This document shows positions 1-37,138 of a stretch of DNA of 64,000 nucleotides, one piece after another (the stretch's first letter is position 1; each line of letters begins with the position of its first letter). This DNA comes from Candidatus Pacebacteria bacterium RIFOXYA1_FULL_38_18 (GTDB lineage Bacteria > Patescibacteriota > Microgenomatia > UBA1400 > PJMF01). Location of the stretch: positions 118,860 to 182,859 of the forward strand of contig MFWV01000011.1 in assembly GCA_001787405.1 (NCBI GenBank), read 5' to 3'. The position numbers and the translations under genes are program-made. Below the pieces are notes generated by a model. The model ran no database searches, was not told where the DNA came from, and was given only the letters and a program-made list of their open reading frames with translations.

Positions 1-45
1 ACATTTGCAATGTAGAGGTCAAGGGTTCGAGCCCCTTAGGGTCCA
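1..45 (+). tRNA. tRNA-Ala(UGC), 3' portion only (5' end lies before the window); spacer tRNA of the rRNA operon
   Basis: Anticodon loop ttTGCaa at 5-11. T-arm aaggg/TTCGAGC/ccctt at 23-37. Acceptor 3' strand agggtcc plus discriminator a. Sits immediately upstream of the 23S rRNA. Confidence 0.6.
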
Positions 46-225
46 CTTAGCCTATTTTGTTTGGCTGTTTCTTATTCGTTTCTGGTTTCGTCTACCGACG
101 AGACGAGGGCGAATAACAAGCAGCTAAAAAATGCTTGAAATTGCTCTTTAAAAAGTGAAGAGAATTATCATCTAATTAATACATTCGTCGAGAATGTTGA
201 AAAAAGAAAAATAATTTCGCTAATA

Positions 226-3130
<2,905 letters not shown>

Positions 3131-3286
3131 TTATTAACGAATTTCTTTTTAAAGATTTCAGACTTATGTTTGAAAAGATGATAAACACTCTTCACTTTTT
3201 AGTGAGCAAAAACAACCTTGCTTGAATGCTTGGTTGAATACTTGGTTAAATGCAACTTAACATAGAATTAGAAAAAGCGTTTTATT

Positions 3287-3402
3287 CTGGTCTCTAGAGC
3301 GAGGTGGAACCAACTCTTTCCATCCCGAACAGAGTCTTGAAACGCCTCAGCGCTGACAATAGTGTTTCCTAGTTGAAACGCGAAGATAGGTCGAGGCCAG
3401 AA
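3287..3402 (+). rRNA. rrf: 5S ribosomal RNA
   Basis: Helix I ctggtctc/gaggccag, conserved ccatcccgaac and gaaacgc motifs, ~116 nt, directly downstream of the 23S. Confidence 0.85.
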
Positions 3403-12988: not shown

Positions 12989-14458
12989 ATGCCAGTGACT
13001 GCCAAAAAAACACCGCTTGCCAAGAAACAAATTCCTACACTCCTTGGTTTGGGAATCTTGATTGTCTCTTTGATAGCCGGGGTCTTGTTATTTGGTGATG
13101 GCACCGGAGTATTTGCTCCTCGCGCTACACCAGAAACTACTCCTAAAAACGTTACAATCAGCAACTTGACTGACAAATCTTTTACGGTTTCTTTCAATAC
13201 AGACGAGGCAACTAGTGGTTTTATTAAATACGGTGAAAAAGAAAGCTCTCTCAAATCACAAGCCAGTGATGATCGCGATCAGCTATCTGGATCAGTAGGA
13301 GAGAATCGTTTGCATCACATAACGGTCAGAAGTTTAATTCCCAATACTACTTATTTTTATACCATTGGCACTGGTTCGTCAGCCAAGTTTGATAATAATG
13401 GGGCACCCTTTACTGTTCGCACTTTACCCGCTCCATCTGGAGATTCCCCAATAAACAAGACTATTTATGGTACTGTCATCACGGAATCAGGTGCACCAGC
13501 AGAAGGAAGCATAGTTTATGTTCGAGGAGATAATATGGGCGAAATGTCTTCACTAGTTAAATCTTCTGGTAGTTGGGCGATTGCTTTGGCAAATGCTCGA
13601 AATAGTGATGGCAGTAATTTTGCTCAACTGACCGATGACACTATTTTGAACATTATCATTCAAGGAACGGATCCAGCCAAAAGTTCGATATTTTCTATTC
13701 CTGTCAAAGAAGCTCAGCCAGTTCCAGAACTTACTTTAGGGAATGTCCCGCCTGTTCAAACAACCGAACAGACAGATACTAGTGGTACAGATAGTAATAC
13801 TCCAGGAGGTTTAACTGATTTGTTAGATGAAATAGCCAGTGAAGAAGAGGCGAGCGAAGGTGGAATAAGTGAAAATGAAACAATAACTACAGACGAGAAT
13901 TCAGAACAAAAAACTCTTGACTTATCAGAAGTAGTAGAAGAAGATCGACCGACGGTTAATTCCACTCCGCTTATCAAAGGTACGGTTGCTCCTGGAGTAG
14001 CCGTTACTATTGAAGTAAATTCAGAAACCCAAATTACTCAAACCTTGATTGCTGATGAAGATGGCAATTTTAGTTTGGATTTAGCTAGCCTAGGACAAGA
14101 ACTAGAACCAGGCGAGCATAGTGTCACTTATACCTACACTGATCCCACCACTGGTGAATCGGTGACCAAAACTCAAGTATTCTTGGTTGAAGACACCAGC
14201 AGTCAGTTGGCTTTAGCAGACACCAACGATGAAACTACGAGCTTTGGCTCTGGAGATCCTTTTCCAGTAGAAGCTACCCCCACACCTACCCCTGTATCGG
14301 TACTAGACACCACTCGTTCTGCAGTAGTTTCTACAGAAGAAGGCAGTTTCCAGGCTGGTTCGGTAGAGAACACTATTATCTTGATTGTAGGTGGGATATT
14401 CTTTATTTTTGCTGGAGTTTGGAGTTGGTGGCTAGCTCACGAAGTAAGAGAAGACTAG
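12989..14458 (+). CDS. cell-surface protein with a fibronectin type III-like domain, acidic linker, Ig-like domain and C-terminal TM anchor
   Basis: N-terminal signal anchor. FN3/purple-acid-phosphatase-N-like block NVTISNLTDKSFTVSFNTDEATSGFIKYG...NTTYFYTIG. Ig-like GTVAPGVAVTIEVNSE...DEDGNFSLDL. C-terminal hydrophobic helix plus HEVRED. Confidence 0.55.
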   Translation: MPVTAKKTPLAKKQIPTLLGLGILIVSLIAGVLLFGDGTGVFAPRATPETTPKNVTISNLTDKSFTVSFNTDEATSGFIKYGEKESSLKSQASDDRDQLSGSVGENRLHHITVRSLIPNTTYFYTIGTGSSAKFDNNGAPFTVRTLPAPSGDSPINKTIYGTVITESGAPAEGSIVYVRGDNMGEMSSLVKSSGSWAIALANARNSDGSNFAQLTDDTILNIIIQGTDPAKSSIFSIPVKEAQPVPELTLGNVPPVQTTEQTDTSGTDSNTPGGLTDLLDEIASEEEASEGGISENETITTDENSEQKTLDLSEVVEEDRPTVNSTPLIKGTVAPGVAVTIEVNSETQITQTLIADEDGNFSLDLASLGQELEPGEHSVTYTYTDPTTGESVTKTQVFLVEDTSSQLALADTNDETTSFGSGDPFPVEATPTPTPVSVLDTTRSAVVSTEEGSFQAGSVENTIILIVGGIFFIFAGVWSWWLAHEVRED

Positions 14459-15645
14459 TTTTTAATTTCCAGTTCTTGATCTATTACGTTCCATAAATCT
14501 CTGGAATTTCCCTCATAACCCAATGACCAAATAGCAATGCCAGCCAAGTTTAATTGATTAACATATTCTAGTTTATATGAAACTGAGGCAGCATTCTCAA
14601 AATAGATTAAGTAATTTTTTCCATTTTCAACATAACTTAAATAAGGAGCTAGGGCATTTTTATCCCAATGTTCAACCAATGCCAATTCTTCTTTGCGAGC
14701 TAATAAGTCTTTAACCCGTTGATAACTGGCAGTAACTCCAGTGCGAGGTAGGGTAAATGACTCTGGTTGAGTGGAAGTGGTTTGCCACTCATAGCCATAA
14801 AAAGGAATGCCCAAAAGTAGTTTGTTGGTGGGTGCTTTTCTGGAAAAATCTCTCAAATAATCATTGATATTTTCTGACCAACTTGCTTCTTTTTCAAAAA
14901 GAGGAGCCACTGGTCCTGCAGTAGGCGAAGAACTGCGATGAAAATCGTAAGCCATCACGATGATGTAATCTACCAAAGGCACGATTTTTTCTACTTCCCA
15001 AAGCATATTTTTGGTTGCTGCACCAGCATACATATCAACTGTTAGTTCAATATCATCATAGGTGTCGTTTAAATGATCTCGAACTTTTTGTAAAAAAGAC
15101 GTATATTGTTGACGCAATTCTTGAGAAGCAAGGCCAACGTATTCAATGTCTAGATTAAGACCATTAAAAGGATAGGCTAGTAAGAGCGAGTCGATTTCTT
15201 GCAAAAAAGTTTCCTGGGCAGTTGAAGAAGCCAAGAAAGCCTCAATCTCATCATTATCAAATTGAGAGAGCACAATATGAGTTTTACTGCCATAAGTTTT
15301 GGCGGTTTCATTTATTTGTAAAAAATCTTCCGACTGCAAATTTCTAAAGCCTGGATCAGTCTCTCCATTGCTGACGGTTAATAAACTACCATCATCTTTG
15401 ATGGTCAATGAAAAATAAACCAAATGAGTCAACTCTGGTTGGAGTGTGACTTTTTTCATATTCCAGTAAGGCAGAAAACCATAAACTATTTTTTTGGTTT
15501 TAATATGAGGAAAGCTGGAGAGAAATCTAGAAAAAGGATTGTCTCCCAAGGGAGAGAGAAGAGGTGGTTCAATGAAAATCCAGATTACTACTAAAATGCC
15601 AATTAAAATCAGCAGAATGGTATTAATGATTTTTCTCACCCTCAA
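14455..15645 (-). CDS. glycoside hydrolase family 18 (chitinase-like) domain protein with an N-terminal TM anchor
   Basis: GH18 catalytic region ...FNGLNLDIEYVG... (DxxDxDxE-like with D-x-E retained) and FYGYEW. Its start overlaps the PBP1A stop by 4 nt. Confidence 0.65.
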   Translation of the reverse strand: MRVRKIINTILLILIGILVVIWIFIEPPLLSPLGDNPFSRFLSSFPHIKTKKIVYGFLPYWNMKKVTLQPELTHLVYFSLTIKDDGSLLTVSNGETDPGFRNLQSEDFLQINETAKTYGSKTHIVLSQFDNDEIEAFLASSTAQETFLQEIDSLLLAYPFNGLNLDIEYVGLASQELRQQYTSFLQKVRDHLNDTYDDIELTVDMYAGAATKNMLWEVEKIVPLVDYIIVMAYDFHRSSSPTAGPVAPLFEKEASWSENINDYLRDFSRKAPTNKLLLGIPFYGYEWQTTSTQPESFTLPRTGVTASYQRVKDLLARKEELALVEHWDKNALAPYLSYVENGKNYLIYFENAASVSYKLEYVNQLNLAGIAIWSLGYEGNSRDLWNVIDQELEIKN

Positions 15646-18122
15646 TCTTTTTCTTTTTTGTCTTTACCCTGACCATTATTTTGAGGAGTGCTGCTAGCTG
15701 GCAGGCTCATATTTTCTTGAGCATAATGCTTTTCGTAAATAATTTTTCCTTCTTCGTCTACTGCTCGGTTACAATCTCCGCAATAAAGTTCTGTGACGGG
15801 ATCTTGATAAATCATATGAGTTTCCAAAACTAAACCCTCTGCTTCTTCACCATATTCAGGAGGTAAACCGGTTTCAGGTTTGATCCAAACTTCTTTACTA
15901 ATAATAGTTGAGCGTGATGGTTTGCCTTCTGCCCAATAAAGCTCTTCATTGGTTTCTGTACAACCCTTTTCTTCACTCTTTTCTTCATTCTCAGACTCGG
16001 TACTAGTGACGGTCAATTCTCGTGGTAAACCACTAGGACAAACCGTTCCCTTCATTACGTCTGCTGGTTTTTCTTGCCAGCTTGGTTCTTGATTGCGCAA
16101 GACATAACTCATGATGTCATTGAAAATAGGGGCTGCTCCAGTGATGCCGGAAGCTAAATAACTCATTGGGGTATTGTCATTATTTCCCACCCAGACAATA
16201 GTTAGGAATTTTGGAGTAAAACCAATCGTCCAGTTATCTTTTAGATCATTGGTGGTACCGGTTTTTACACTGACTACTTGATTAGGAATTACCAATTCAG
16301 AATTGGTGCCAAAAGCCAGTGTTCTAGCGCTGTTATCTTGCATGATGTTACTAACCAAATAAGCTGGGGCTGGATCCATAACTCTTTGCAGTTCACCTTT
16401 ATTTTCATCAGTTGGATTGGCGAGTAGAGTTTGTAAATTTTCCAATCTCTCTTCCAAATCAATTTCCAGCAACTGCTCTCCTTTAAAATTTTCTATTTTC
16501 AAAATAGGTAAAATCGGTACCTTTACTCCTTGATTGGCCAAGACTCCGAAAGCCAAAGCCATGTCGATCATGCGCACCTCTCCACCGCCCAAAGCGAGAG
16601 AAGGACCGTATTGAGAAGGATCTTGCCAGCCGGTAATGCCCATTTTGGTAGCCTGAGCAATGAGACTTTCCACTCCAATGGTTTGGATCGCTTTGACTGC
16701 TGGGATATTAAGTGAATTACCCAAGGATTGACGAACCGTTACCGGTCCTTTGAAATCTCCAGTATAGTTTTTGGGACAATATTCTGGCTGGTTTGGCAAC
16801 TTGATGCAGGTGGGAATATCCAAAAGCATAGTGCCAGGATTCAGAGTTTTTTCTTGAAAGGCAGTACCATAAACAATGGGTTTGATAGAAGATCCTGGTT
16901 GTCTCCTGGCAAGAGTAACATTAACCTGACCATCATCTTCCAGATTAAAATAATTTTTGGAGCCGATCATAGCCAAAATTTCACCGGTATCAGGTTTAGT
17001 AATTAAGGCAGCTCCGTTGCCCACTCGTAAGCGCGCTAGACTGTCAACTTCTGCGGAAAGAGAAGCTTGAGCTGCTTCTTGTAGATCAATATCCAGAGTG
17101 GTGGTAACCCGCAAGCCACCTTTCTCCACCATCTCCTCTCCGTATTCTTCATATAACAAATCTCGCACGTAAAATACAAAGTGGGGAGCTTTGATATCGG
17201 TTTTTTTTAAAGCAAATTGTAGAATATCATTCTTGGCTTCTTCGGCTCGGGGAGCGTCAATAAATTTTTCTTCTACCATTCTGCGCAAAACTTCTTGTTG
17301 ACGAGTTTTAGCTCTTTCCGGATCTGAACCAAAAGGGGAGTAAAGGCTGGGAGCTTGAGGTAGGCCGGCCAACATGGCTGCTTCTGCTATGGTTAGATCT
17401 TTGGCACTTTTGTCAAAATAGTGTTGAGAGGCTGATTCAATACCAACGGCTGTACCGCCATAAGAAATATAATTAAGATACATTTCCAAAATATCTTCTT
17501 TGCTGTAAATCAACTCAGTTATGACAGATAAGACCGCCTCCTTGATTTTTCTAGTCCAGGAGCGTTCGGGGGTTAAGAGGGCATTTTTTACTAATTGCTG
17601 AGTAATGGTCGAACCACCTTCTAGGCGTTCACCAGTAAAATTATTTTTAACTGCCCGCAGAATACCCTCTAGATCAAAACCCCAGTGTTTATAGAAATTT
17701 TTATCTTCTATGGCGATTGTGGCTTGCAAGACGTGAGGGGGCAGACTTTCTATTTCAATGGGAATTCTATTTTCATCAGCAAAAATTTCGTAGAGTAAAA
17801 CACCATTACGATCAAAGATTTGAGTGCTGACAGCAAAGTTTTCTTGAGAAGTCAGTCGGCGAGGTGAAGGTAGATCGCGGATGAGAAAAGCAAAAACTGC
17901 CAGACCAGAGAAAAAAACGGCCAACAAACCGTAACCCACCAGTTTATTGCGAAAAGGTAAACTCAAAACTCGTCCAAATGAATGCCAGCGCTGGCGTTGA
18001 GTTGGTGTTTTAACTAGTTTTTTTTCAAGGGAATCAGGAAAACCTAGAAAAGTTTTTTTCAGATTATTCAATATTTTTTTTTGGTTCTTTGCAGAAGATG
18101 TTACTTTTTTTGATTTACTCAT
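15642..18122 (-). CDS. class A penicillin-binding protein (bifunctional glycosyltransferase GT51 / transpeptidase), PBP1A-type
   Basis: GT51 motifs IAIEDKNFYKHWGFD and GGSTITQQLVKN. Transpeptidase SSIKP (SxxK), SLN, KTGTT. Confidence 0.9.
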   Translation of the reverse strand: MSKSKKVTSSAKNQKKILNNLKKTFLGFPDSLEKKLVKTPTQRQRWHSFGRVLSLPFRNKLVGYGLLAVFFSGLAVFAFLIRDLPSPRRLTSQENFAVSTQIFDRNGVLLYEIFADENRIPIEIESLPPHVLQATIAIEDKNFYKHWGFDLEGILRAVKNNFTGERLEGGSTITQQLVKNALLTPERSWTRKIKEAVLSVITELIYSKEDILEMYLNYISYGGTAVGIESASQHYFDKSAKDLTIAEAAMLAGLPQAPSLYSPFGSDPERAKTRQQEVLRRMVEEKFIDAPRAEEAKNDILQFALKKTDIKAPHFVFYVRDLLYEEYGEEMVEKGGLRVTTTLDIDLQEAAQASLSAEVDSLARLRVGNGAALITKPDTGEILAMIGSKNYFNLEDDGQVNVTLARRQPGSSIKPIVYGTAFQEKTLNPGTMLLDIPTCIKLPNQPEYCPKNYTGDFKGPVTVRQSLGNSLNIPAVKAIQTIGVESLIAQATKMGITGWQDPSQYGPSLALGGGEVRMIDMALAFGVLANQGVKVPILPILKIENFKGEQLLEIDLEERLENLQTLLANPTDENKGELQRVMDPAPAYLVSNIMQDNSARTLAFGTNSELVIPNQVVSVKTGTTNDLKDNWTIGFTPKFLTIVWVGNNDNTPMSYLASGITGAAPIFNDIMSYVLRNQEPSWQEKPADVMKGTVCPSGLPRELTVTSTESENEEKSEEKGCTETNEELYWAEGKPSRSTIISKEVWIKPETGLPPEYGEEAEGLVLETHMIYQDPVTELYCGDCNRAVDEEGKIIYEKHYAQENMSLPASSTPQNNGQGKDKKEKD

Positions 18123-20373: not shown

Positions 20374-20829
20374 ATGCTTTGTCCATTTTGCCAGTCTGAT
20401 AGTCTATCAGTTATTGATACTAGAGAAGCAGAGGGTGGAGAAACCACTCGCCGACGCAGAGTTTGTAAAAAATGTCAGCATCGGTTTACTACATATGAGC
20501 GACCTGAAGGCATTGATCTAAAAGTGATTAAAAAAAATGGAGCAACTGAACATTTTAGTAGAGAAAAAATTAAAAGAGGCCTTATTAAAGCAACTTGGAA
20601 ACGACCAGTTTCTATGACGCAAATCGAAGACTTGATCAACGAGGTAGAAAGCAAGCTTCGTATCAAAGGAGTGCGTGAGGTAAAAAGTTGGGAAATTGGC
20701 AATTTGGTTATTAACAGATTAAAAAAATTGGATCCGTTGGCTTACTTATTATTTGCTACGGTTTATCGAGATTTTGACACGGTTGAAGATTTTAAAACAG
20801 AAATCGGAAAACTGGAAAAACAATCATAA
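20374..20829 (+). CDS. nrdR: transcriptional repressor NrdR
   Basis: Zn-ribbon CPFC...CKKC, RRRR motif, ATP-cone domain. Confidence 0.9.
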   Translation: MLCPFCQSDSLSVIDTREAEGGETTRRRRVCKKCQHRFTTYERPEGIDLKVIKKNGATEHFSREKIKRGLIKATWKRPVSMTQIEDLINEVESKLRIKGVREVKSWEIGNLVINRLKKLDPLAYLLFATVYRDFDTVEDFKTEIGKLEKQS

Positions 20830-20860
20830 ATTATTTGGAAAATTATTTAGAAAGTGCCAT

Positions 20861-23059
20861 ATGACCTCTAAAGCCTCAGCCACTCTTCCCAAGAAAAAAA
20901 TGCAGTTTATTGATAGAAAATTGGCTAAAGGCTTGGGAGAAGCAGTGGCAAAGAGAACTATTTTGCGCACCAGTGATGATGGCAAAATAGAAACTTGGGC
21001 CGAGGTGGCAGAACGAGTGGCAAGCGGCAATTCTTCACTACTGACAACTTTTGGTAAAGGCAAAAAATTGGGTAAAGCCCATCAGCAGGAAGAATACGAG
21101 TTATTGCGCAAACACATTGCCAATGCCTCATTGTTAATGAGCGGACGACATTTACAACACGGTGATGAAACTCAGCCTGGCAGAAACATAGAAGTTTTCA
21201 CTAACTGTAGCACTGCTTCCAGTTCTTTTTTATTATTTTACTTGCTGCTCAATGGTTCGGGAGTGGGTCGTGCCTATGATGATGACTTGATGGTCGTTGA
21301 TTGGAACAACATGCCCATTGTGCGCTGTGTACTAGACGAGAATCACCCAGATTTTATTTGGGGAGAAGATGAAAGCATCAGAGATGCCAAACACAAATAT
21401 GAAAAGGTTTTTTGGTATGAAGTGCCAGATACTCGCGAAGGCTGGGCTCAGGCCATAGAAAAAATGGAGACCATGGCCTATGAGAAAAAATATAAAGATG
21501 ATTTATTGATTATTGATTTTTCCAAAGTTAGACCAAAAGGTTCAAAGATTAGAGGCATGCAAAATAGGCCAGCTTCTGGACCCAGACCACTCATGCAAGC
21601 TATTCAAAAAGTAGCCACGGTAAAAAATGCCGGCATTCCGCTTTGGAAACAAACTATTTATGTTGATCATTACTTGTCAGAATGTGTTTTGGTGGGTGGG
21701 GCACGTCGTGCAGCACGAATTGCTACCAAAACCTGGACTGATCCAGAGGTTTTGGATTTTATTTCTATCAAACGTGGTGGTTTCTTATGGTCGGCCAATA
21801 ACAGCGTGGCAGTAGATGATAAGTTCTGGAAACAAAAAACTCGTCACTCCAAAAAAGTTCTGGAGGCAATCATGCAGGCTTCTTACTTTGATAAAACTGG
21901 TGAGCCTGGCTTTATCAATCAGCACAAATATGTACAAAATGACAAGGGTTTCAATGGCTATACCGATGGTAAATATGCCGATAGTAAAAAATACCAACCC
22001 GCGCCCAAAACTAAAAAAATGCTGGCCAACATTGCCAAAAGAGTCAACGCCAAATATTACACTCAAATTCCCAATCCTTGCGGAGAAATTACTCTCAATA
22101 TGTTGGGTGGTTATTGTGTGATTGCAGATGTGGTGCCTTATCATGCTCCTGATGTTGATGCGGCTGAAGAGGCTTTTCGGGCAGCCACTCGGGCTCTTAT
22201 TCGTGTGAATACTATGGATGCTCTTTATGCTCGTGAAATAAAACGCACCAATCGAATTGGAGTGGGGATGACCGGCATTCATGAATATGCTTGGAATGCT
22301 TTTGGTTTGAGTTTTAGAGATGTGATTGATGAGAAAAAAGCCAAAGATTTTTGGCTGACTCTTTCACGCTTCAAAAGAGCGGTGGCAGAGGAGGCGGAAA
22401 GTTACTCCAAAAAATTGGGTTTAAATCCTCCGCATACCAACACCACTATCAAGCCGGCCGGCACGACTTCCAAATTATTTGCTCTTTCGGAGGGAGCTCA
22501 TTTGCCGGCGATGCGTGAATATATGCGTTGGGTGCAGTTTAGCAATGATGATCCTTTGGTCAAAAAATATAAAAAAATGGGTTATCCGGTAAGAGAATTA
22601 AAAAGTTATAAAGGCACGACCGTGATCGGTTTTCCCACTCAACCAGAAATTTGTCGTTTGGGTATGAATGGCAAATTATTGACGGCTTCTGAAGCAACTC
22701 CGGAGGAACAATATAAATGGTTGATGTTGCTGGAAAAATATTGGATTCGTGGAGTAGATGAGGCTGGTCAACCACTGGAACCAGATACTGGCAATCAAGT
22801 TTCTTATACTCTCAAATATGATCCGGAAAAAACCAGTTTTAAAGAATTCAAAAAAATGCTCAAGAAATATCAACCACAGATCAGAACTTGTAGTGTGATG
22901 CCCAAAATTGATTCTACGGCCTATGAATATCAGCCGGAAGAAGCGCTCAATGCCAGTGAGTTTATGAAAGTAATTCGCGAAATCAATGACGAAGAGGGAG
23001 TGCTGGAAGATATTGATTTAGAGCAATTAAAATGTGATACTGGTGCTTGCCCGATTTAA
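20861..23059 (+). CDS. nrdJ: class II (adenosylcobalamin-dependent) ribonucleotide reductase
   Basis: Active-site motif IPNPCGEI and a C-terminal redox cysteine pair CDTGACPI. Start set at the Met after the nrdR stop (20861). Confidence 0.85.
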   Translation: MTSKASATLPKKKMQFIDRKLAKGLGEAVAKRTILRTSDDGKIETWAEVAERVASGNSSLLTTFGKGKKLGKAHQQEEYELLRKHIANASLLMSGRHLQHGDETQPGRNIEVFTNCSTASSSFLLFYLLLNGSGVGRAYDDDLMVVDWNNMPIVRCVLDENHPDFIWGEDESIRDAKHKYEKVFWYEVPDTREGWAQAIEKMETMAYEKKYKDDLLIIDFSKVRPKGSKIRGMQNRPASGPRPLMQAIQKVATVKNAGIPLWKQTIYVDHYLSECVLVGGARRAARIATKTWTDPEVLDFISIKRGGFLWSANNSVAVDDKFWKQKTRHSKKVLEAIMQASYFDKTGEPGFINQHKYVQNDKGFNGYTDGKYADSKKYQPAPKTKKMLANIAKRVNAKYYTQIPNPCGEITLNMLGGYCVIADVVPYHAPDVDAAEEAFRAATRALIRVNTMDALYAREIKRTNRIGVGMTGIHEYAWNAFGLSFRDVIDEKKAKDFWLTLSRFKRAVAEEAESYSKKLGLNPPHTNTTIKPAGTTSKLFALSEGAHLPAMREYMRWVQFSNDDPLVKKYKKMGYPVRELKSYKGTTVIGFPTQPEICRLGMNGKLLTASEATPEEQYKWLMLLEKYWIRGVDEAGQPLEPDTGNQVSYTLKYDPEKTSFKEFKKMLKKYQPQIRTCSVMPKIDSTAYEYQPEEALNASEFMKVIREINDEEGVLEDIDLEQLKCDTGACPI

Positions 23060-23328
23060 AAAAAGAAAAAATGCCTATAGACGAGCAAGAGAGAAAAAGA
23101 AGAGAGGAAGAATACAAGAAGTTTGGCAGATTGCCGGTTGCGGCATATGATCTTTATATAAATGGTATTCAGAAGATTGCAGAAAAAAGAGGAATTTCCA
23201 TTGAACAAGCTGCTGCAGAATCAATTTCTGAAGCGGAAGAAAGACACGCTCACGAACATATAGATTTTATTAAAGCGGCTTTGAAATTTTTACAACAACA
23301 GCGCGATGGTGACAAGAAAAAGAAATAA
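23047..23328 (+). CDS. small charged hypothetical protein
   Basis: ORF overlapping the nrdJ end. Lys/Glu-rich, no recognisable domain. Met at 23071 is an alternative start. Confidence 0.3.
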   Translation: MPDLKKEKMPIDEQERKRREEEYKKFGRLPVAAYDLYINGIQKIAEKRGISIEQAAAESISEAEERHAHEHIDFIKAALKFLQQQRDGDKKKK

Positions 23329-23430
23329 TTTTTTTCAAGATTGATTAGTTTTTCAGCTCATTAGTTTTTATTTTTTCCAAACAGTAAATATTTTTTGTTT
23401 TTTTAAATTATTTAAATTTGAGCGTCAATT

Positions 23431-26067
23431 TTGAAAACTGGGTTCTTGCACAGTGCCAATTGGCTGACTATAATTCCCACCAACATGGTGGGAAAAAAAT
23501 TGGCAAAATCACGCAGAAAAAAAACAAAAATCTCTCGTCATTCTGTAGTTCCCAAAAAACCTTCTCTTTTCCAAAAAATTAAAATAAATCTTCGAAAAAT
23601 ATTTTTTTCACCAAAAGGTCGTGGTCGACCGCGCAAATCGTGGTGGTATCACGCACGCAAAAATTATTTAGCTCGTTACAAAAAAAATGAACGAGAGATT
23701 TATCGTTGGTTAGACAGTCAGCAACAAAAAATTGATGGTTTTTTTAAAATGATTGGTTTGCGAAGGGGGAAGGGGCGGCCGCGCAAAAAAATCTCGATAG
23801 TGGCGCGCTGGCGAGGTTTACTAGAGGAAAAAAAGCGTAAATGGCGTCGTTGGCTTGATTTTCACACTGGTATTTGGAGTTCCAGATACCATCGTTTACT
23901 TCAATGGCTGGGTTTACGCCGCCGCCGCGGCCGCCCTCACAAACAGCAAAAACCTACGGTTTGGCTATTACCCATTAGTGACCAATCAGAACTAGCCATT
24001 ACCCCCGTTCATTTGCAGTGGCGAGAAATTTTTGCTTTTTTATCTACTTTAATAATTTTACTTTCTACTTGGTGGGGATATAGCTATGTTTTTGTTGACT
24101 TACCATCTGTTTCAGATCTTACTCAAAAAAATCCTTTATTAACCACCAAGATTTTGGATAGAAATGGCAGAGTTTTATTTCGCATTTACGATGATGAGAA
24201 TAGAACCTTAGTGCCACTTTCAGAAATTTCCCAGCCGATGATTCAAGCAACTTTAGCAATCGAAGATAAAGATTTTTACAAACATCATGGTTTTTCTTTG
24301 GAGGGAATTATTCGTGCCACCATTGCCAATTTCAAGGGAGAGCAAATCGAACAAGGTGGCTCAACCATTACTCAGCAATTAGTCAAAAATCGCTTGCTCA
24401 ATTCAGAAAGAACGATCCAGCGCAAATTGCGAGAGTTGATATTATCAGTAGTCACCGAAGGTGTTTATACCAAAGATGAAATCTTGGAAATGTACCTCAA
24501 TCAGGTGGCTTATGGCGGGTCAACTTATGGAGTAGAGGAAGCAGCTTGGCGATATTTTCATAAATCAGCCAAAGACTTAAATTTGGCTGAAGCAGCTTTG
24601 CTGGCTGGATTGCCACAAGCGCCCTCGGTTTATTCGCCTTTTGGTTCCAATCCAGAATTGGCCTTTTCTCGTCAAGAAGAAGTTCTGCGTCGCATGTTTG
24701 AAGATGGCTATATTACTCAGGAACAATGGCAAGAAGCACGCGACACGATTATTGTTTTTGCAGAAGACAGAATCGATATTCAAGCCCCGCATTTCGTGAT
24801 GTATGTCAAAAGATTGTTGGCTGAAAAATTTGGTGAACTAGCGGTAAGCACTGGTGGCTTGGAAGTTAGAACTACTTTGGACTTGGGCTTACAAAAGGAA
24901 ACGGAACTGATTTTGCAACAAGAACTTGATCGCTTACAGTCTTTGAGAGTAGGTAATGGCTCTGTATTGGTTACCAATCCCAAAACAGGTGAAATTTTGG
25001 CTATGATCGGCTCCAAAGATTATTTTGATTTTGCTCACGATGGTCAAGTAAATGTAGCACTAAGACCTCGTCAACCAGGATCTTCAATCAAGCCTCTAAC
25101 TTATGCTTTGGCTTTGGAAAATGGCAAAACACCGGCCAGCATTATTGATGATTCACCAGTAATTTATCAGTCAGTGGGTAGCCCACCTTACGCTCCCCAA
25201 AACTATGATGGCAAGTTTCACGGCAAAGTTACCCTGCGTGAAGCGCTAGCCTCTTCTTACAACGTGCCAGCAGTCAAAACTCTAGCTGAGCTGGGAGTGA
25301 GCACTATGCTTGATCGGGCTGAACTAGCGGGGATAACCACCTGGCAAGATCGAGGTCGTTTTGGTCTATCACTAACTTTGGGCGGTGGAGAAGTAACCAT
25401 GGTGGAGTTGGCTCAGCTCTATGGAGTTTTTGCCAATTACGGAGATTTAGTGAGCCTCAATCCTTTTTTGGAAATAAAAAATCATAAAGGAGAAGTGTTA
25501 TACAGCAACCAATGTGTTACGGGAGAAGTTGCCTGTGCTCAAAATCGAGTTTTTGATTCATATACCTCTTATTTAATTACCGATATTTTATCTGACAACA
25601 AGGCTCGCACTCCGGCTTTTGGCGCGCAGTCAGTACTCAATATTCCCGGTCAAGAAGTAGCGGTTAAAACAGGCACCACCAATAGTTTGCGTGACAATTG
25701 GACCATCGGTTATACCACTGATCGTTTGGTGGCAGTTTGGGTGGGAAATAATGACAATACTCCTATGAACTCAATTGCTTCTGGTATTACTGGCGCTTCA
25801 CCAATTTGGAATAAGACTATGCGGTTGCTTCTTAGTCCAGAGATTTCTCACATATTTGCGACGCCTGACAATTTAATTCAAGTGGCTATTTGTAAAACGA
25901 CTGGCACTTTGCCTTGTAATGATTGTCCTTTGGTAGTCACGGAAACATTTTTAGAAGGCACGCAGCCCACTCATGCTTGTAATGCTTCATATTTTGAATC
26001 AAAAACAGATTCTCAGACCAGATCTTCAACCGGTCAAATTTTAGGGGAAAGTCAGCTTTTGGAATGA
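23431..26067 (+). CDS. class A penicillin-binding protein with a ~200-aa N-terminal cytoplasmic tail carrying three AT-hook (RGRP) motifs
   Basis: KGRGRPRKS, GKGRPRKK and RRGRPHKQ upstream of the TM helix. Then GT51 motifs IEDKDFYKHHGF and GGSTITQQLVKN, and transpeptidase SSIKP, SYN and KTGTT. Confidence 0.85.
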   Translation: MKTGFLHSANWLTIIPTNMVGKKLAKSRRKKTKISRHSVVPKKPSLFQKIKINLRKIFFSPKGRGRPRKSWWYHARKNYLARYKKNEREIYRWLDSQQQKIDGFFKMIGLRRGKGRPRKKISIVARWRGLLEEKKRKWRRWLDFHTGIWSSRYHRLLQWLGLRRRRGRPHKQQKPTVWLLPISDQSELAITPVHLQWREIFAFLSTLIILLSTWWGYSYVFVDLPSVSDLTQKNPLLTTKILDRNGRVLFRIYDDENRTLVPLSEISQPMIQATLAIEDKDFYKHHGFSLEGIIRATIANFKGEQIEQGGSTITQQLVKNRLLNSERTIQRKLRELILSVVTEGVYTKDEILEMYLNQVAYGGSTYGVEEAAWRYFHKSAKDLNLAEAALLAGLPQAPSVYSPFGSNPELAFSRQEEVLRRMFEDGYITQEQWQEARDTIIVFAEDRIDIQAPHFVMYVKRLLAEKFGELAVSTGGLEVRTTLDLGLQKETELILQQELDRLQSLRVGNGSVLVTNPKTGEILAMIGSKDYFDFAHDGQVNVALRPRQPGSSIKPLTYALALENGKTPASIIDDSPVIYQSVGSPPYAPQNYDGKFHGKVTLREALASSYNVPAVKTLAELGVSTMLDRAELAGITTWQDRGRFGLSLTLGGGEVTMVELAQLYGVFANYGDLVSLNPFLEIKNHKGEVLYSNQCVTGEVACAQNRVFDSYTSYLITDILSDNKARTPAFGAQSVLNIPGQEVAVKTGTTNSLRDNWTIGYTTDRLVAVWVGNNDNTPMNSIASGITGASPIWNKTMRLLLSPEISHIFATPDNLIQVAICKTTGTLPCNDCPLVVTETFLEGTQPTHACNASYFESKTDSQTRSSTGQILGESQLLE

Positions 26068-26117
26068 AGTTTGAAATAAATTAATTTAGTCAAATTTAAT
26101 TAAAATTTAATTGAAAT

Positions 26118-26315
26118 TTAGCTGAATAAAAAAATTACATAAGAAATAAGCATAGTAATCAATAGCAATAGAGGAGCAACCAAACGTTCTTTGAGAGTGG
26201 AGTTGTGATCATCTTTTTTCTCTGCGCGTTTGCGTTTTTTCTGTTTAGCTTCTTTTTCAGTAATTTTTGTTTCTTCTTGAATGTCGGTCAAGTTCCGATT
26301 TTTTTTCATTTTCAT
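26118..26315 (-). CDS. small C-terminally anchored membrane protein, hypothetical
   Basis: 65-aa ORF with a Lys/Glu-rich N-terminus and a hydrophobic C-terminus. Confidence 0.3.
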   Translation of the reverse strand: MKMKKNRNLTDIQEETKITEKEAKQKKRKRAEKKDDHNSTLKERLVAPLLLLITMLISYVIFLFS

Positions 26316-26323
26316 AAATTTGG

Positions 26324-27070
26324 TTATTTTTGATTGTGTGTTTTCATTTTTTTAGTTTTATCCACGATTTTTCCCACTACTTTTTCAATGGCGAGTTGAG
26401 TAGTATCCAGTTTCCAAGCTTCAGGCACTATTTTCAAAGGATCTGTTTTGCGATTCATGTCTCTAGTGTCTCTTTCTTTAATTTCTTGCAGAATTTCTTG
26501 AAGACTGGCATCAAGTCCTTTTAATTGCAGTTGCAATAAACGTCGTTTGGCTCTTTCTCGAACGTCCGCGGTTAGAAAGATTTTCAAATCTGCTTTTGGT
26601 AAAACACGATAGGTGATATCTCTACCTTCCATGACTACATTTTGACCATGAGCAATTTTTTGTTGTTTTTCAACTAATATTTTTCTCACTTTTGGCAAAA
26701 CCGAGACTTTTGAAGCGCCTTGGCTGATTTCTTCGGTTCGGATTTTCCAAGAAATATCTTCGCCATTTAATAAAACAGTAATCAATCGACCATCTTGTTC
26801 GCTGACGATAGACTTACTCTTTTGGGAGGGCTTGACGGGATCAGCAAGGGGAGTGCGCATCTCTATTTTGGAAGATTTAATCAAATCCACGATTTTTTGT
26901 TCTTCGGTGTAAGCTACTTGATTTTGTTGAGCAAGATAAGCAGCTACGCGATACATAGCGCCAGTATCGACATAAAGAAAACCGAGTCGTTGAGCAACTA
27001 GTTTGGAAACGGTGCCCTTACCAGCAGCGACTGGTCCGTCAATGGCGATGTGAAAAAATTTTTTAGCCAC
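26324..27070 (-). CDS. cmk: cytidylate kinase
   Basis: IAIDGPVAAGKGT P-loop and a Cmk-like sequence throughout. Confidence 0.9.
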   Translation of the reverse strand: MAKKFFHIAIDGPVAAGKGTVSKLVAQRLGFLYVDTGAMYRVAAYLAQQNQVAYTEEQKIVDLIKSSKIEMRTPLADPVKPSQKSKSIVSEQDGRLITVLLNGEDISWKIRTEEISQGASKVSVLPKVRKILVEKQQKIAHGQNVVMEGRDITYRVLPKADLKIFLTADVRERAKRRLLQLQLKGLDASLQEILQEIKERDTRDMNRKTDPLKIVPEAWKLDTTQLAIEKVVGKIVDKTKKMKTHNQK

Positions 27071-27147
27071 GATGTGTTGATTACTACAAATAAATTATTA
27101 TAAACAAAGGGGGGTTTTATCCCCCCTGATAATTTAAGTTAATTCAT

Positions 27148-27426
27148 TTATTTTCTTTTTCTACTACTTTTTTTAGCTTTCTTTTTAGCTGAACGACGAG
27201 GGCTTGCTTTTTTCTGGCTAGATTTTTTTTCTACGAGCCATTCATCTCGATCAGAAGTTAGCAAACCTCCCAAACCAGCTACGATTAAGATAATCGGCCA
27301 AAGGTTCCAAAAATGTGCTGGTAAATAACCCATATTGGAAGCCATGAAAATCAGACCCATTAATACCAAGGTCAACGGCCAAAATATTTTTTTAGGCATA
27401 TTATTTACTCTCTTTCTTCTTCCCAT
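27148..27426 (-). CDS. small membrane protein with a basic C-terminal tail, hypothetical
   Basis: Two predicted TM helices, then KKASPRRSAKKKAKKSSRKRK. Confidence 0.35.
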   Translation of the reverse strand: MGRRKRVNNMPKKIFWPLTLVLMGLIFMASNMGYLPAHFWNLWPIILIVAGLGGLLTSDRDEWLVEKKSSQKKASPRRSAKKKAKKSSRKRK

Positions 27427-36666: not shown

Positions 36667-36765
36667 AGCTTTTTTCTATTTTTTTTCTAACTAGCGTGAT
36701 AATAAATTGCCAGACTTTTTATACTTACAACTTCCCAACCAAAACAACGGGTTGAATAACCTTGT

Positions 36766-36838
36766 ACCAGGGGTGAGAGTTGAACTCACGACCTCAGGTT
36801 TATGAATCCTGTGCTCTAACCAACTGAGCTACCCTGGC
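36766..36838 (-). tRNA. tRNA with anticodon CAU (elongator tRNA-Met or lysidine-type tRNA-Ile2)
   Basis: Minus-strand cloverleaf gccaggg...D-arm tagctcagttggttagagc...anticodon loop ttCATaa...T-arm gtgag/TTCAACT/ctcac...ccctggt-a. Confidence 0.75.
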
Positions 36839-36957
36839 TTTACTTCTTGAGTTTGATAAATAAATTTATCAACTCTTTGAGAGTGAGCCTAAATTATACC
36901 AATCACTAGATGTTTTGACGAGAGCCCCAGAGAAGGTTATAATGACGCTCTGTTAAT

Positions 36958-37026
36958 CGCGGGGTAGTGTACGGTGCACGTGAGGCTCATAATCTCACAG
37001 GCTAGGTTCGACTCCTAGCCCCGCAA
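36958..37026 (+). tRNA. initiator-type tRNA-fMet(CAU)
   Basis: 5' CGCGGGG and 3' CCCCGCA-A with the C1xA72 mismatch diagnostic of bacterial initiator tRNA. Anticodon loop ctCATaa. T-arm ctagg/TTCGACT/cctag. Short D-loop. Confidence 0.7.
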
Positions 37027-37138
37027 CAATTAATTTATCTTTATATTTTATATTTTTCTAAGTCATTTTTTTAAATCAGTTTTTATTAGTTTTAAATTTA
37101 TTGTATACTTATTTAACTATCAAATTTTAAGGACTAAA

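What the first reader, a model, noticed from the sequence alone, without database searches (positions are those of the whole stretch)
23431..24030. Class A PBP with three AT-hook DNA-binding motifs in its cytoplasmic N-terminal tail
Before the single TM helix the protein carries KGRGRPRKS, GKGRPRKK and RRGRPHKQ, all canonical R-G-R-P AT-hook cores. They are spaced ~50 aa apart by Trp/Arg-rich amphipathic segments, and units 2 and 3 share an (I/L)GLRR-x-GRP-(R/H)K motif. The encoding DNA is locally GC-rich (ggtcgtggtcgaccgcgc, ggccgccct). AT-hooks bind the minor groove of AT-rich DNA, so on a peptidoglycan synthase this would tether cell-wall synthesis to the AT-rich nucleoid, or have a regulatory role. 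I am not aware of this architecture being described. The window also encodes a second class-A PBP without such a tail.
Basis: partly seen in the sequence, partly recalled or inferred. Interest (0 to 1): 0.65.

Follow-up and report, generated by a model that had tools for sequence, protein, structure and literature searches.

The report
Cell-wall synthase with DNA-hook tail
A peptidoglycan-building enzyme of an uncultured ultra-small (Patescibacteria) bacterium carries, on its intracellular tail, three evenly spaced copies of a short motif that grips AT-rich DNA in other proteins; relatives keep the same layout, which hints at an undescribed and still untested physical link between chromosome and cell-wall synthesis.

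Summary
The gene (ATG 23485 to stop 26067) encodes an intact class A PBP of a Candidatus Pacebacteria MAG. Its 178-residue N-terminal tail (53 K+R, 9 D+E) has RGRP at residues 46-49, 96-99 and 148-151. Three GRP arise in only 7 of 200,000 shuffles of the tail.

Of 113 homologues with a complete N-terminus, 76 carry GRP motifs in the tail. Spacing between consecutive motifs is exactly 50 residues in 75 of 109 intervals. The only invariant tail columns are the hook cores; the rest is 16-53% identical.

AlphaFold2 places the hooks in low-confidence loops that separate two confident 37-residue cationic amphipathic helices: hook-helix-hook-helix-hook, then the TM helix. A conserved promoter whose -10 box ends 9-10 nt before the ATG, and in-frame conservation, put the start codon upstream of all hooks. 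Topology is N-in.

DNA binding is inferred from the motif only. The Pfam AT_hook score is below threshold, though so is an HMGA1 control. Positional orthologues without hooks exist. No literature on this architecture was found.

Best reading: a membrane-anchored, multivalent AT-rich-DNA binder that couples the enzyme to the nucleoid (confidence about 0.5). It is a new variant of known kinds.

The parts
23446..23474 (+). Sigma-70-type promoter: TTGCAC (23446-23451), 17-nt spacer, TATAAT (23469-23474). The -10 box ends 10 nt before the ATG, which implies a leaderless or near-leaderless mRNA.
   Evidence: Consensus scan. The same cTTGCr-N17-cTATAATcc, ending 9-10 nt before the ATG, is present in six orthologous loci (L087, L088, L090, L091, L081, L092). 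L083 and L093 have TAAAAT at about the same distance.
23474..23494 (+). Palindrome or hairpin spanning the start codon: TTCCCACCA-ACA-TGGTGGGAA. Its function is unknown.
   Evidence: RNAfold gives -14.0 kcal/mol. Arm changes are compensatory in L087, L088, L090 and L091. Nine cells changed on both sides, reached by 4 of 500 shuffles.
23485..26067 (+). Coding sequence of the class A PBP (860 aa plus stop), counted from the likely true start ATG 23485.
   Evidence: Pfam Transgly 212.7 bits and Transpeptidase 98.1 bits. TIGR02074 scores 513.5 against a cut-off of 508.75. The 860-aa NCBI record OGJ37562.1 is in the same 90%-identity cluster.
23485..23610 (+). Variable, basic pre-hook segment (aa 1-42). 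It is absent in one clade, where the protein starts directly with MAxKKRGRP.
   Evidence: Alignment. AF2 pLDDT is 45-64 here.
23611..23640 (+). Hook 1, PKGRGRPRKS (aa 43-52).
   Evidence: R-G-R-P is invariant in the 27-sequence alignment. Residues 42-47 have pLDDT below 50. The isolated 22-mer scores 13.8 bits, E=0.053, against Pfam AT_hook.
23641..23751 (+). Spacer helix 1 (aa 53-89): a 37-residue cationic amphipathic helix.
   Evidence: AF2 helix H53-89, pLDDT 83-87 in the full-length model and 92-98 in the tail-only model. Hydrophobic periodicity is 3.6 across homologues.
23761..23790 (+). Hook 2, RRGKGRPRKK (aa 93-102), preceded by the conserved motif phi-G-phi-(K/R)(K/R).
   Evidence: G-R is invariant. 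Pro is replaced by Lys (RGRKKLP) in many relatives. It lies in an AF2 loop, with residues 96-102 at pLDDT below 50.
23797..23907 (+). Spacer helix 2 (aa 105-141): a 37-residue cationic amphipathic helix.
   Evidence: AF2 helix H105-141, pLDDT about 87, seen as H67-103 in the tail-only model. Periodicity is 3.6.
23917..23946 (+). Hook 3, RRRRGRPHKQ (aa 145-154).
   Evidence: G-R-P is invariant. The residue before G is R or V in relatives. The loop 152-177 has low pLDDT.
23947..24018 (+). Juxtamembrane linker (aa 155-178), variable in sequence and length.
   Evidence: Alignment. AF2 pLDDT is below 50.
24019..24093 (+). Single transmembrane helix (aa 179-203), N-in and C-out.
   Evidence: It is the highest hydropathy window in the protein. 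AF2 helix H179-203, pLDDT 90-94. Charge is strongly asymmetric: 53 K+R before it.
24166..24696 (+). GT51 transglycosylase domain (aa 228-404), with EDKDFYKHHG at 260 and GGSTITQQ at 291.
24958..25818 (+). Transpeptidase domain (aa 492-778), with S533-S-I-K536, S591-Y-N593 and K728-T-G730.
15642..18122 (-). Paralogous class A PBP with no hook module (comparator, not part of the feature).
   Evidence: Pfam Transgly and Transpeptidase. Its roughly 60-aa tail has no GRP. The same neighbour is conserved in relatives.

Best explanation
The gene encodes a catalytically intact bifunctional class A PBP of a Pacebacteria (Patescibacteria/CPR) bacterium. Its roughly 178-residue cytoplasmic N-terminal tail contains a conserved module: hook-helix-hook-helix-hook.

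Anatomy (shown or predicted). Three RGRP AT-hook-type motifs sit in flexible loops. Two 37-residue cationic amphipathic helices hold them 50 and 52 residues apart. A linker of about 25 residues and a single TM helix follow.

Mechanism (inferred). The three hooks insert into the minor groove of A/T tracts, which are ubiquitous in this 40% GC genome. Binding would be multivalent and of low sequence specificity. The helices would act as rigid spacers that lie on the inner-leaflet surface or along the DNA backbone. The synthase in the membrane would thus be physically coupled to the nucleoid. That coupling could anchor DNA to the envelope, or make the enzyme's position or mobility depend on where the chromosome is.

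Status of each step. Shown: the motifs, their conservation and spacing, the start codon, and the domain architecture. Predicted: the loops and helices. Inferred: cytoplasmic location, DNA binding, and its physiological consequence.
For: 1. Three basic-flanked RGRP motifs, far more than chance (7 of 200,000 shuffles).
2. In a 27-sequence alignment of tails that are only 16-53% identical, the sole invariant columns are RGRP, GR and GRP.
3. Of 113 homologues with a complete N-terminus, 76 have GRP in the tail. Inter-hook spacing is exactly 50 aa in 75 of 109 intervals and 52 aa in 14.
4. The RGRP core is the published HMGA1/CarD AT-hook consensus, which binds the minor groove of AATT-type DNA (PMC8476142; PMC8156234).
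5. A profile of these tails, searched against 1.84 billion proteins, retrieves multi-AT-hook proteins besides PBP fragments. Three of them pass the Pfam AT_hook cut-off.
6. AF2 puts the hooks in low-pLDDT loops, as expected for AT-hooks, between confident helices.
7. The tail is cytoplasmic by inference: 53 K+R against 9 D+E before the only TM helix, and the GT51/TP domains and invariant Cys residues after it.
8. The tail is translated. The reading frame and motifs are conserved even in loci where gene callers started at the TM helix. A conserved promoter ends 9-10 nt before the ATG.
9. Targets are plentiful: 34 A/T runs of at least 5 bp per kb in the window.
Against: - There is no experimental or structural evidence of DNA binding.
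- Pfam AT_hook does not reach its cut-off. The whole tail gives no hit, and hook 1 alone scores 13.8 against 17.4 bits.
- In relatives, hook 2 is often RGRK (no Pro) and hook 3 is often VGRP (no first Arg).
- Strictly fixed spacing and structured amphipathic helices with a conserved hydrophobic stripe are atypical for AT-hook regions. They could point instead to a protein or membrane partner.
- Positional orthologues have equally long basic tails but no hooks, so the hooks are dispensable for the enzyme.
- More distant Patescibacteria PBPs lack hooks altogether.
Confidence: 0.5

Rival explanations
1. The RGRP motifs are docking sites for a cytoplasmic adaptor or cytoskeletal protein. Precedents are Arg-rich motifs in the tails of Firmicute PBPs that bind GpsB, and the Caulobacter PbpC tail that binds bactofilin. 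The fixed 50-residue spacing would then match the geometry of an oligomeric partner, and the hydrophobic stripes of the helices would pack against it.
For: PBP cytoplasmic mini-domains are known protein-interaction modules with Arg-based motifs (PMC11062636). The spacing is strictly conserved, and each helix has a conserved one-residue-wide hydrophobic stripe. Hookless orthologues show that the module is an accessory, lineage-specific add-on.
Against: The defined GpsB recognition motif (S/T)-R-x-x-R-(R/K) is absent. It occurs in 2 of 113 tails, against 7.5 expected by chance. No candidate partner gene is conserved next to the PBP. The invariant residues coincide exactly with the nucleic-acid-binding RGRP core.
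Confidence: 0.17
2. The tail is a membrane-surface module. The cationic, aromatic-rich amphipathic helices lie on the anionic inner leaflet. The G-R-P elements are mainly helix-terminating and helix-initiating turns (Gly C-cap, Pro N-cap) with basic residues for lipid contact. The module would control localisation, clustering or curvature sensing rather than bind DNA.
For: The two 37-residue helices have 3.6-3.7 periodicity, Trp/Phe/Tyr on one stripe and K/R elsewhere. Hookless orthologues keep long polybasic tails. The only (insignificant) PDB sequence matches are designed helical repeats with 'G-D-P' loops.
Against: A turn or lipid-contact role does not explain why both arginines of R-G-R-P are invariant while everything else drifts. 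The hydrophobic stripe is narrow, about one residue per turn. AF2 gives no confident helix packing (pTM 0.41), and Foldseek finds nothing. This reading is also compatible with DNA binding by the loops.
Confidence: 0.17
3. The hooks and basic helices bind RNA (rRNA, mRNA or a small RNA) rather than DNA. AT-hook-like and RG-rich peptides can do this. Possible roles are localised translation or insertion, or sequestering the tail.
For: The polycationic composition is extreme (53 K+R in 178 aa). Extended AT-hooks and basic tails of bitopic morphogenetic proteins such as RodZ have been reported to bind RNA; this is my own knowledge and was not checked here.
Against: No RNA-binding domain or family hit was found. 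The invariant core is the minor-groove DNA motif. There is no structural RNA gene in the conserved neighbourhood.
Confidence: 0.1
4. The motifs are a non-functional by-product: low-complexity basic sequence, or an untranslated upstream region, with the real start near the TM helix.
For: Some gene callers do start the orthologues at the TM helix (P0017, P0019). HMMER bias filters treat the tail as low complexity.
Against: The frame is open and the hooks are conserved in exactly those loci. Motif columns are invariant among tails of 16-53% identity. A promoter is conserved 9-10 nt before the ATG. There is no Met between hook 3 and the TM helix.
Confidence: 0.02

Closest known systems
Class A penicillin-binding proteins (PBP1A family, TIGR02074; GT51 plus transpeptidase)
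   Same: Full domain set, catalytic motifs, a single N-terminal TM anchor and N-in topology.
   Different: Known aPBP cytoplasmic tails are short or serve protein contacts or phosphorylation. None is described with AT-hooks (literature searches). Here the tail is about 178 aa with a three-hook, two-helix module.
HMGA-type AT-hook proteins (eukaryotic HMGA1/2; Myxococcus xanthus CarD C-terminal domain)
   Same: Several RGRP cores flanked by K/R. Hook 1 (GRGRPRK) matches the first HMGA1 hook as I recall it. Binding to spaced AT tracts is the documented mode (PMC8476142, PMC8156234).
   Different: Those proteins are soluble and intrinsically disordered, with variable linkers. Here the hooks are separated by rigid 37-residue helices at fixed spacing, and the module is fused to a membrane enzyme. 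Pfam AT_hook is below its cut-off.
AT-hook-like RGR/QGR loops of the xenogeneic silencers Lsr2, Bv3F and H-NS
   Same: A bacterial use of an R-G-R element to read the AT-rich minor groove (PMC8476142). The variant hook 2 (RGRK) retains this RGR.
   Different: In the silencers the loop is embedded in a folded C-terminal domain of soluble, oligomerising proteins. There is no homology to this tail.
Bitopic membrane proteins with a cytoplasmic N-terminal nucleic-acid-binding module (ToxR/CadC/TcpP winged-helix regulators; RodZ with an Xre-type HTH)
   Same: The same topology: a cytoplasmic DNA-binding-type element, one TM helix, and an extracytoplasmic domain. RodZ also belongs to the wall-synthesis machinery (my own knowledge).
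   Different: No HTH or winged-helix domain is detectable here. The outside part is an enzyme, not a sensor. AT-hooks give low sequence specificity.
GpsB-binding mini-domains of Firmicute PBPs and the bactofilin-binding tail of Caulobacter PbpC
   Same: Short conserved Arg-containing motifs in the cytoplasmic tail of a class A PBP, used for spatial control (PMC11062636).
   Different: The motif (S/T)-R-x-x-R-(R/K) is absent. Here the motif comes in three copies at fixed 50-residue spacing.
DNA-membrane tethers: Noc (amphipathic helix plus ParB-like DNA binding), plastid PEND, and the nuclear lamin B receptor (a membrane sterol reductase with a basic chromatin-binding N-terminal tail)
   Same: The functional analogy proposed here: a membrane-associated protein whose basic segment holds DNA at the membrane. 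LBR is likewise an enzyme with a chromatin-binding tail (my own knowledge).
   Different: There is no sequence or fold relationship. The analogy is untested.

Membership tests
Class A PBP (PBP1A family) | GT51 transglycosylase domain with catalytic EDxxFxxHxG and GGSTITQQ motifs | tested here: met
   PF00912 scores 212.7 bits. EDKDFYKHHG at aa 260 and GGSTITQQ at aa 291. These positions are invariant in 82 homologues.
Class A PBP (PBP1A family) | Acyl-serine transpeptidase domain with SxxK, SxN and KTG motifs | tested here: met
   PF00905 scores 98.1 bits. S533SIK, S591YN and K728TG are present and invariant.
Class A PBP (PBP1A family) | Curated family model above its cut-off | tested here: met
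   TIGR02074 scores 513.5 bits against a cut-off of 508.75.
Class A PBP (PBP1A family) | Single N-terminal membrane anchor, with the catalytic domains outside | tested here: met
   One hydrophobic helix at aa 179-203. Orientation is inferred from charge asymmetry and enzyme function, not measured.
AT-hook motif (Pfam PF02178 / SMART AT_hook) | G-R-P core preceded by R and flanked by K/R on both sides | tested here: met
   GRGRPRK, GKGRPRKK and RRRRGRPHK. The consensus RGRP is given in PMC8476142.
AT-hook motif (Pfam PF02178 / SMART AT_hook) | Score at or above the Pfam gathering cut-off (17.4 bits) | tested here: inconclusive
   The whole tail gives no hit. Hook 1 as a 22-mer scores 13.8 bits, E=0.053. 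The three hooks concatenated score 12.9.
AT-hook motif (Pfam PF02178 / SMART AT_hook) | Motif lies in an extended or disordered segment | tested here: met
   AF2 places the hooks in loops, with residues 42-47, 96-102 and 152-177 at pLDDT below 50. This is a prediction only, and the flanking helices are ordered, unlike HMGA.
AT-hook motif (Pfam PF02178 / SMART AT_hook) | Binds the minor groove of AT-rich DNA | not testable with these tools
   This needs EMSA, NMR or footprinting, or protein-DNA co-folding.
AT-hook motif (Pfam PF02178 / SMART AT_hook) | Located in a DNA-containing compartment | tested here: met
   The tail is N-terminal to the only TM helix and carries 53 K+R against 9 D+E. Cytoplasmic location follows from the positive-inside rule and aPBP topology; it is an inference.
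GpsB-binding PBP mini-domain | (S/T)-R-x-x-R-(R/K) motif in the cytoplasmic tail | tested here: not met
   Absent in this tail. Present in 2 of 113 homologue tails, against 7.5 expected from shuffles. The motif definition is from PMC11062636.
ToxR/CadC-type membrane-bound transcription regulators; RodZ | Folded winged-helix or HTH DNA-binding domain in the cytoplasmic part | tested here: not met
   The tail gives no Pfam or NCBIfam hit. AF2 shows two isolated long helices rather than an HTH. Foldseek against the PDB finds nothing.
Hin/resolvase-type 'GRPR arm plus HTH' DNA-binding domain (about 50 aa) | Three-helix HTH immediately after the GRPR minor-groove arm | tested here: not met
   Each roughly 50-aa unit is predicted as one continuous 37-residue helix. 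There are no HTH_7 or related hits.

The most novel reading that the evidence does not exclude
In a clade of ultra-small Patescibacteria, a peptidoglycan synthase is itself a nucleoid-binding protein. Three rigidly spaced AT-hooks clamp chromosomal DNA to the inner face of the membrane. Chromosome position would then directly template, restrain or license class A PBP activity, or the enzyme would double as a chromosome anchor. Either way this would be a direct DNA-to-cell-wall coupling device with no described counterpart.
Probability: 0.3. Interest if true: 0.8.

Novelty: new variant of a known kind. Interest (0 to 1): 0.6.

Why it matters
How bacteria coordinate chromosome position with envelope growth is known only for a few model systems, and there it works through dedicated soluble factors such as Noc, SlmA, MatP and ParB-DivIVA. 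A wall-building enzyme with a conserved, geometrically fixed, multivalent AT-hook module on its cytoplasmic side would be a direct one-protein link between DNA and peptidoglycan synthesis.

It occurs in a major uncultured lineage whose cell biology is almost unknown. The hypothesis is cheaply testable with peptides or a recombinant 178-aa tail.

Two further points have practical value:
- RGRP AT-hooks are described as rare in bacteria (PMC8156234). This clade shows a recurrent, membrane-anchored use of them.
- Gene callers truncate this tail in some relatives, so the feature is under-annotated.

Tried and rejected
1. Word-index homology search with the tail alone and with the tail profile. These returned nothing, or only a 163-aa fragment; low complexity apparently defeats candidate collection and scoring. 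The full-length protein had to be used instead.
2. Exhaustive profile search of the tail against 1.84 billion representatives. Only 18 hits, because 50%-identity clustering collapses the PBPs. It was useful only in showing that the profile signal equals the AT-hook.
3. Genome-contig scan with the full-length alignment. None has hooks, so it bounds the distribution but does not map it.
4. Foldseek of the tail model against the PDB found no match. A PDB sequence-profile search gave only insignificant designed helical bundles.
5. Hin/resolvase-like 'GRPR arm plus HTH' idea for the roughly 50-aa unit. Rejected: each unit is a single long helix, with no HTH hits.
6. GpsB-type motif. Rejected.
7. 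Link between hooks and AT-rich composition. No significant difference in a FYMINK/GARP proxy between hook-bearing and hookless homologues (p=0.09, in the opposite direction).
8. Special codon usage or GC island at the hooks. Rejected as a codon artefact.
9. Six literature searches found no description of AT-hook PBPs.
Full report
**1. What is at the coordinates**

The mechanical ORF 23431..26067 (+) encodes 878 aa. Pfam finds a GT51 transglycosylase domain (aa 228-404, 212.7 bits) and a transpeptidase domain (aa 492-778, 98.1 bits). The NCBIfam PBP1A-family model TIGR02074 scores 513.5 bits against a cut-off of 508.75. The catalytic motifs are all present: EDKDFYKHHG, GGSTITQQ, S533xxK, S591xN and K728TG. 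They are invariant in 82 homologues. The enzyme part is therefore an ordinary, apparently active class A PBP. The N-terminal 173 residues match no Pfam or NCBIfam family.

**2. Start codon**

The TTG at 23431 is probably not the start. Four lines of evidence point to the ATG at 23485:
- It begins MVGKK..., which aligns with the N-termini of the closest homologues (MVVKN, MVGKN, MVGRK).
- It is the start of the 860-aa NCBI record in the same cluster (OGJ37562.1, Candidatus Pacebacteria MAG).
- A sigma-70-type promoter, TTGCAC-N17-TATAAT (23446-23474), ends 10 nt before it.
- The same cTTGCr-N17-cTATAATcc element, ending 9-10 nt before the ATG, is present in six orthologous loci whose surrounding sequence differs. 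Two Woesebacteria-type loci have TAAAAT at about that distance.

This geometry implies a leaderless or nearly leaderless mRNA. Translation would then begin at this ATG, upstream of all three motifs.

Some relatives are annotated as 662-676-aa proteins starting at the TM helix (P0017, P0019). In their loci, however, the roughly 165 upstream codons are open, in frame, and encode the complete three-hook tail. Those are gene-calling errors.

**3. The observation itself**

Numbered from Met 23485, the tail reads:
- aa 1-42, a basic segment
- PKGRGRPRKS (43-52)
- a Trp/Arg-rich segment
- RRGKGRPRKK (93-102)
- a second such segment
- RRRRGRPHKQ (145-154)
- a linker
- the only hydrophobic helix (179-203)

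The GRP cores are 50 and 52 residues apart. The 178 residues before the TM helix hold 53 K+R, 9 D+E and 9 W. Three GRP arise in only 7 of 200,000 shuffles of the tail, and no other ORF in the window has a basic-flanked GRP.

The local GC richness is a consequence of Arg/Gly/Pro codons. The tail is 42.4% GC against 39.6% for the window, and CGN already accounts for 70% of Arg codons in the window's genes. The second class A PBP (15642..18122, minus strand) has a tail of about 60 aa with no such motif.

**4. Conservation**

A search with the full protein returned Patescibacteria PBPs. Those that carry a source name are called Pacebacteria, Woesebacteria or 'Patescibacteria group', apart from one labelled Vitreimonas sp.. 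They are 52-70% identical overall.

Among 113 with a complete N-terminus:
- 76 have at least one GRP in the pre-TM tail, and 23 have three.
- 48 have three units when the RGRK variant is counted as well.
- The distance between consecutive units is exactly 50 residues in 75 of 109 intervals, 52 in 14 and 49 in 5.

In a 27-sequence alignment of the module, pairwise identity to the window protein is only 16-53%. The invariant columns are R-G-R-P (hook 1), G-R (hook 2) and G-R-P (hook 3), and nothing else. In many relatives hook 2 is RGRKKLP (Pro to Lys) and hook 3 is KKVGRPKKK. One clade starts directly with MAxKKRGRPRK, so the pre-hook segment is dispensable but the three-unit module is not.

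The genes are positional orthologues. The order nrdR, class II RNR, PBP, small ORF (-), cmk (-), LiaF-TM protein, smpB recurs in Pacebacteria- and Woesebacteria-type contigs.

The module is nevertheless not universal:
- Relatives at the same PBP-cmk-LiaF-smpB position have equally long, very basic tails without hooks (P0033, P0046).
- 59 more distant Patescibacteria and Chloroflexota PBPs whose N-terminal region could be read, from 80 species-representative loci, have none. Most of them have short tails.

The hook module is thus a lineage-specific elaboration of a polybasic tail.

**5. Predicted structure**

AlphaFold2 on the full-length protein with 82 homologues gave mean pLDDT 82.9. The hooks fall in loops, and residues 42-47, 96-102 and 152-177 have pLDDT below 50. 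Between them lie two helices of 37 residues each, H53-89 and H105-141 (pLDDT 83-87), followed by the TM helix H179-203.

The module alone gives the same two helices at pLDDT 92-98. Its pTM is only 0.41, so there is no confident mutual packing. Foldseek finds no PDB match. A PDB sequence-profile search gives only insignificant hits to designed helical repeats.

Across homologues the hydrophobic positions of both spacers recur every 3.6-3.7 residues. That is a narrow aromatic/aliphatic stripe on an otherwise K/R-covered helix. The anatomy is therefore hook-helix-hook-helix-hook, with helices that behave as spacers of conserved length.

**6. Is it an AT-hook?**

By sequence, yes. RGRP flanked by K/R is the published consensus of HMGA1 and of the four hooks of Myxococcus CarD, and it inserts into the minor groove of AATT-type DNA (PMC8476142; PMC8156234).

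A profile of the PBP tails, run against 1.84 billion representative proteins, finds PBP N-terminal fragments and eukaryote-type multi-AT-hook proteins. It also finds one bacterial membrane protein. Three of these hits exceed the Pfam AT_hook cut-off.

The Pfam model itself does not report the tail. Hook 1 as an isolated 22-mer scores 13.8 bits (E=0.053) against the 17.4-bit cut-off. This test is inconclusive rather than negative.

Differences from classical hooks are the ordered helices, the fixed spacing, and the hook 2 and hook 3 variants seen in relatives.

**7. Topology**

There is a single TM helix, with about +44 net charge on the N-terminal side. On the C-terminal side lie the GT51 and TP domains, which act on lipid II outside the membrane (established for aPBPs), and six invariant cysteines. 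The tail is cytoplasmic by inference. No dedicated topology predictor was available.

**8. Mechanism**

My best-supported reading (confidence about 0.5) is that the hooks bind the minor groove of A/T tracts. Such tracts occur 34 times per kb in this window as runs of at least 5 bp, so binding would be multivalent and essentially sequence-unspecific. The membrane enzyme would be held against the nucleoid, or the nucleoid against the membrane.

A 37-residue helix is about 55 Å long, roughly 16 bp of B-DNA. With the loops, successive hooks could reach minor grooves about two helical turns apart. This geometric argument is my speculation. It would, however, explain why spacer length is conserved while spacer sequence is not. 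The hydrophobic stripe may rest on the inner leaflet.

Rival readings:
- An RGRP-dependent protein adaptor, by analogy with GpsB-binding PBP tails (PMC11062636). The defined GpsB motif is absent.
- A purely membrane-associated or structural module, in which G-R-P acts as a helix break. This does not explain the invariant arginines.
- RNA binding.
- A non-functional or untranslated region. This is excluded for practical purposes by sections 2 and 4.

**9. Comparison with known systems, and novelty**

The protein is a member of the class A PBP family. It carries AT-hook-type motifs, but membership of that motif class in the functional sense (DNA binding) is untested. It resembles ToxR/CadC/RodZ in topology and Noc, PEND and LBR in the proposed function. 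It shares no domain with any of them.

Six full-text searches found no paper that links AT-hooks with PBPs, peptidoglycan synthases or Patescibacteria. RGRP hooks are described as rare in bacteria (PMC8156234). I therefore rate it a new variant of known kinds: a known enzyme with a known motif, in a new and conserved architecture that has an unusual rigid-spacer design. Interest is about 0.6. It is well founded as an observation, easy to test, and functionally unproven.

Noticed in passing
window 23474-23494; also L087, L088, L090 and L091 at the equivalent position: A palindrome or hairpin encloses the start codon (TTCCCACCA-ACA-TGGTGGGAA, RNAfold -14.0 kcal/mol). The arms change in a compensatory way in orthologues (CCCGCCA/TGGCGGG, CGACCA/TGGTCG). 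If transcription starts about 7 nt after the -10 box, the 5' arm is not transcribed, so this may be a DNA operator rather than an RNA hairpin. It is weak or absent in L081, L092 and L083.
   Followed up: partly
window 23446-23474 and orthologous loci L081, L087, L088, L090, L091, L092: A conserved sigma-70-like promoter has its -10 hexamer ending only 9-10 nt before the ATG. This suggests that the PBP mRNA is leaderless or nearly so in this clade, and no Shine-Dalgarno sequence is visible.
   Followed up: partly
L087 2497-3000; L088 2436-3000; L089 1-623: Gene callers started the orthologous PBPs at the TM helix (662-676 aa products P0017, P0019). That leaves gaps of 505 nt (L087) and 565 nt (L088) after the RNR gene that in fact encode the whole three-hook tail in frame. 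The feature is therefore under-annotated in public data. NCBI also labels the window's own protein 'hypothetical protein' (OGJ37562.1).
   Followed up: yes
window 20374-27426; L081-L084, L087-L095: Synteny is conserved: nrdR, B12-dependent class II ribonucleotide reductase, hook-PBP, small ORF (-), cytidylate kinase (-), small LiaF-TM protein (-), smpB. The wall synthase with the putative DNA-binding tail thus sits among nucleotide and DNA-precursor genes. A second aPBP and a GH18 gene lie a few kb upstream in the window (14455-18122, minus strand) and directly upstream of the PBP in L094. A divergently oriented aPBP also lies upstream in L081-L084.
   Followed up: partly
P0155; L085 5001-6068: An unrelated bacterial multi-pass membrane protein (355 aa) has four C-terminal KKRGRPKKQ AT-hooks (Pfam AT_hook 31.4 bits, above the cut-off). 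Its context looks Firmicute: hrcA-grpE-dnaK-dnaJ-rsmE-[gene]-yicC-remA-rpoZ-gmk-priA. Membrane-anchored AT-hook proteins therefore exist outside this PBP clade.
   Followed up: partly
window 27148-27426 (-): A small LiaI/LiaF-TM-type membrane protein (92 aa) ends in a strongly basic tail (…KKSSQKKASPRRSAKKKAKKSSRKRK). It is a second envelope protein with a polybasic, presumably cytoplasmic, tail next to the PBP locus, and it is conserved in relatives.
   Followed up: no
window 23047-23328 (+): A 93-aa ORF with no Pfam hit overlaps the end of the RNR gene and lies just before the PBP promoter. ORFs of 120-130 aa occupy the same position in L090 and L093, but there is none in L081 or L083.
   Followed up: no
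window 25819-26064 (aa 779-860 of the PBP): The C-terminal extension beyond the transpeptidase domain carries four of the protein's six invariant cysteines (C803, C811, C814, C832; the other two, C677 and C684, lie in the transpeptidase domain). It also has a weak NlpE-N-like hit (E=0.04). It is probably a disulfide-stabilised extracytoplasmic mini-domain.
   Followed up: no
window 1-3402: The 3' part of a tRNA (1-45), a complete 23S rRNA (222-3137) and a 5S rRNA (3286-3402). Two tRNA-Met genes face each other at 36764-37027.
   Followed up: no
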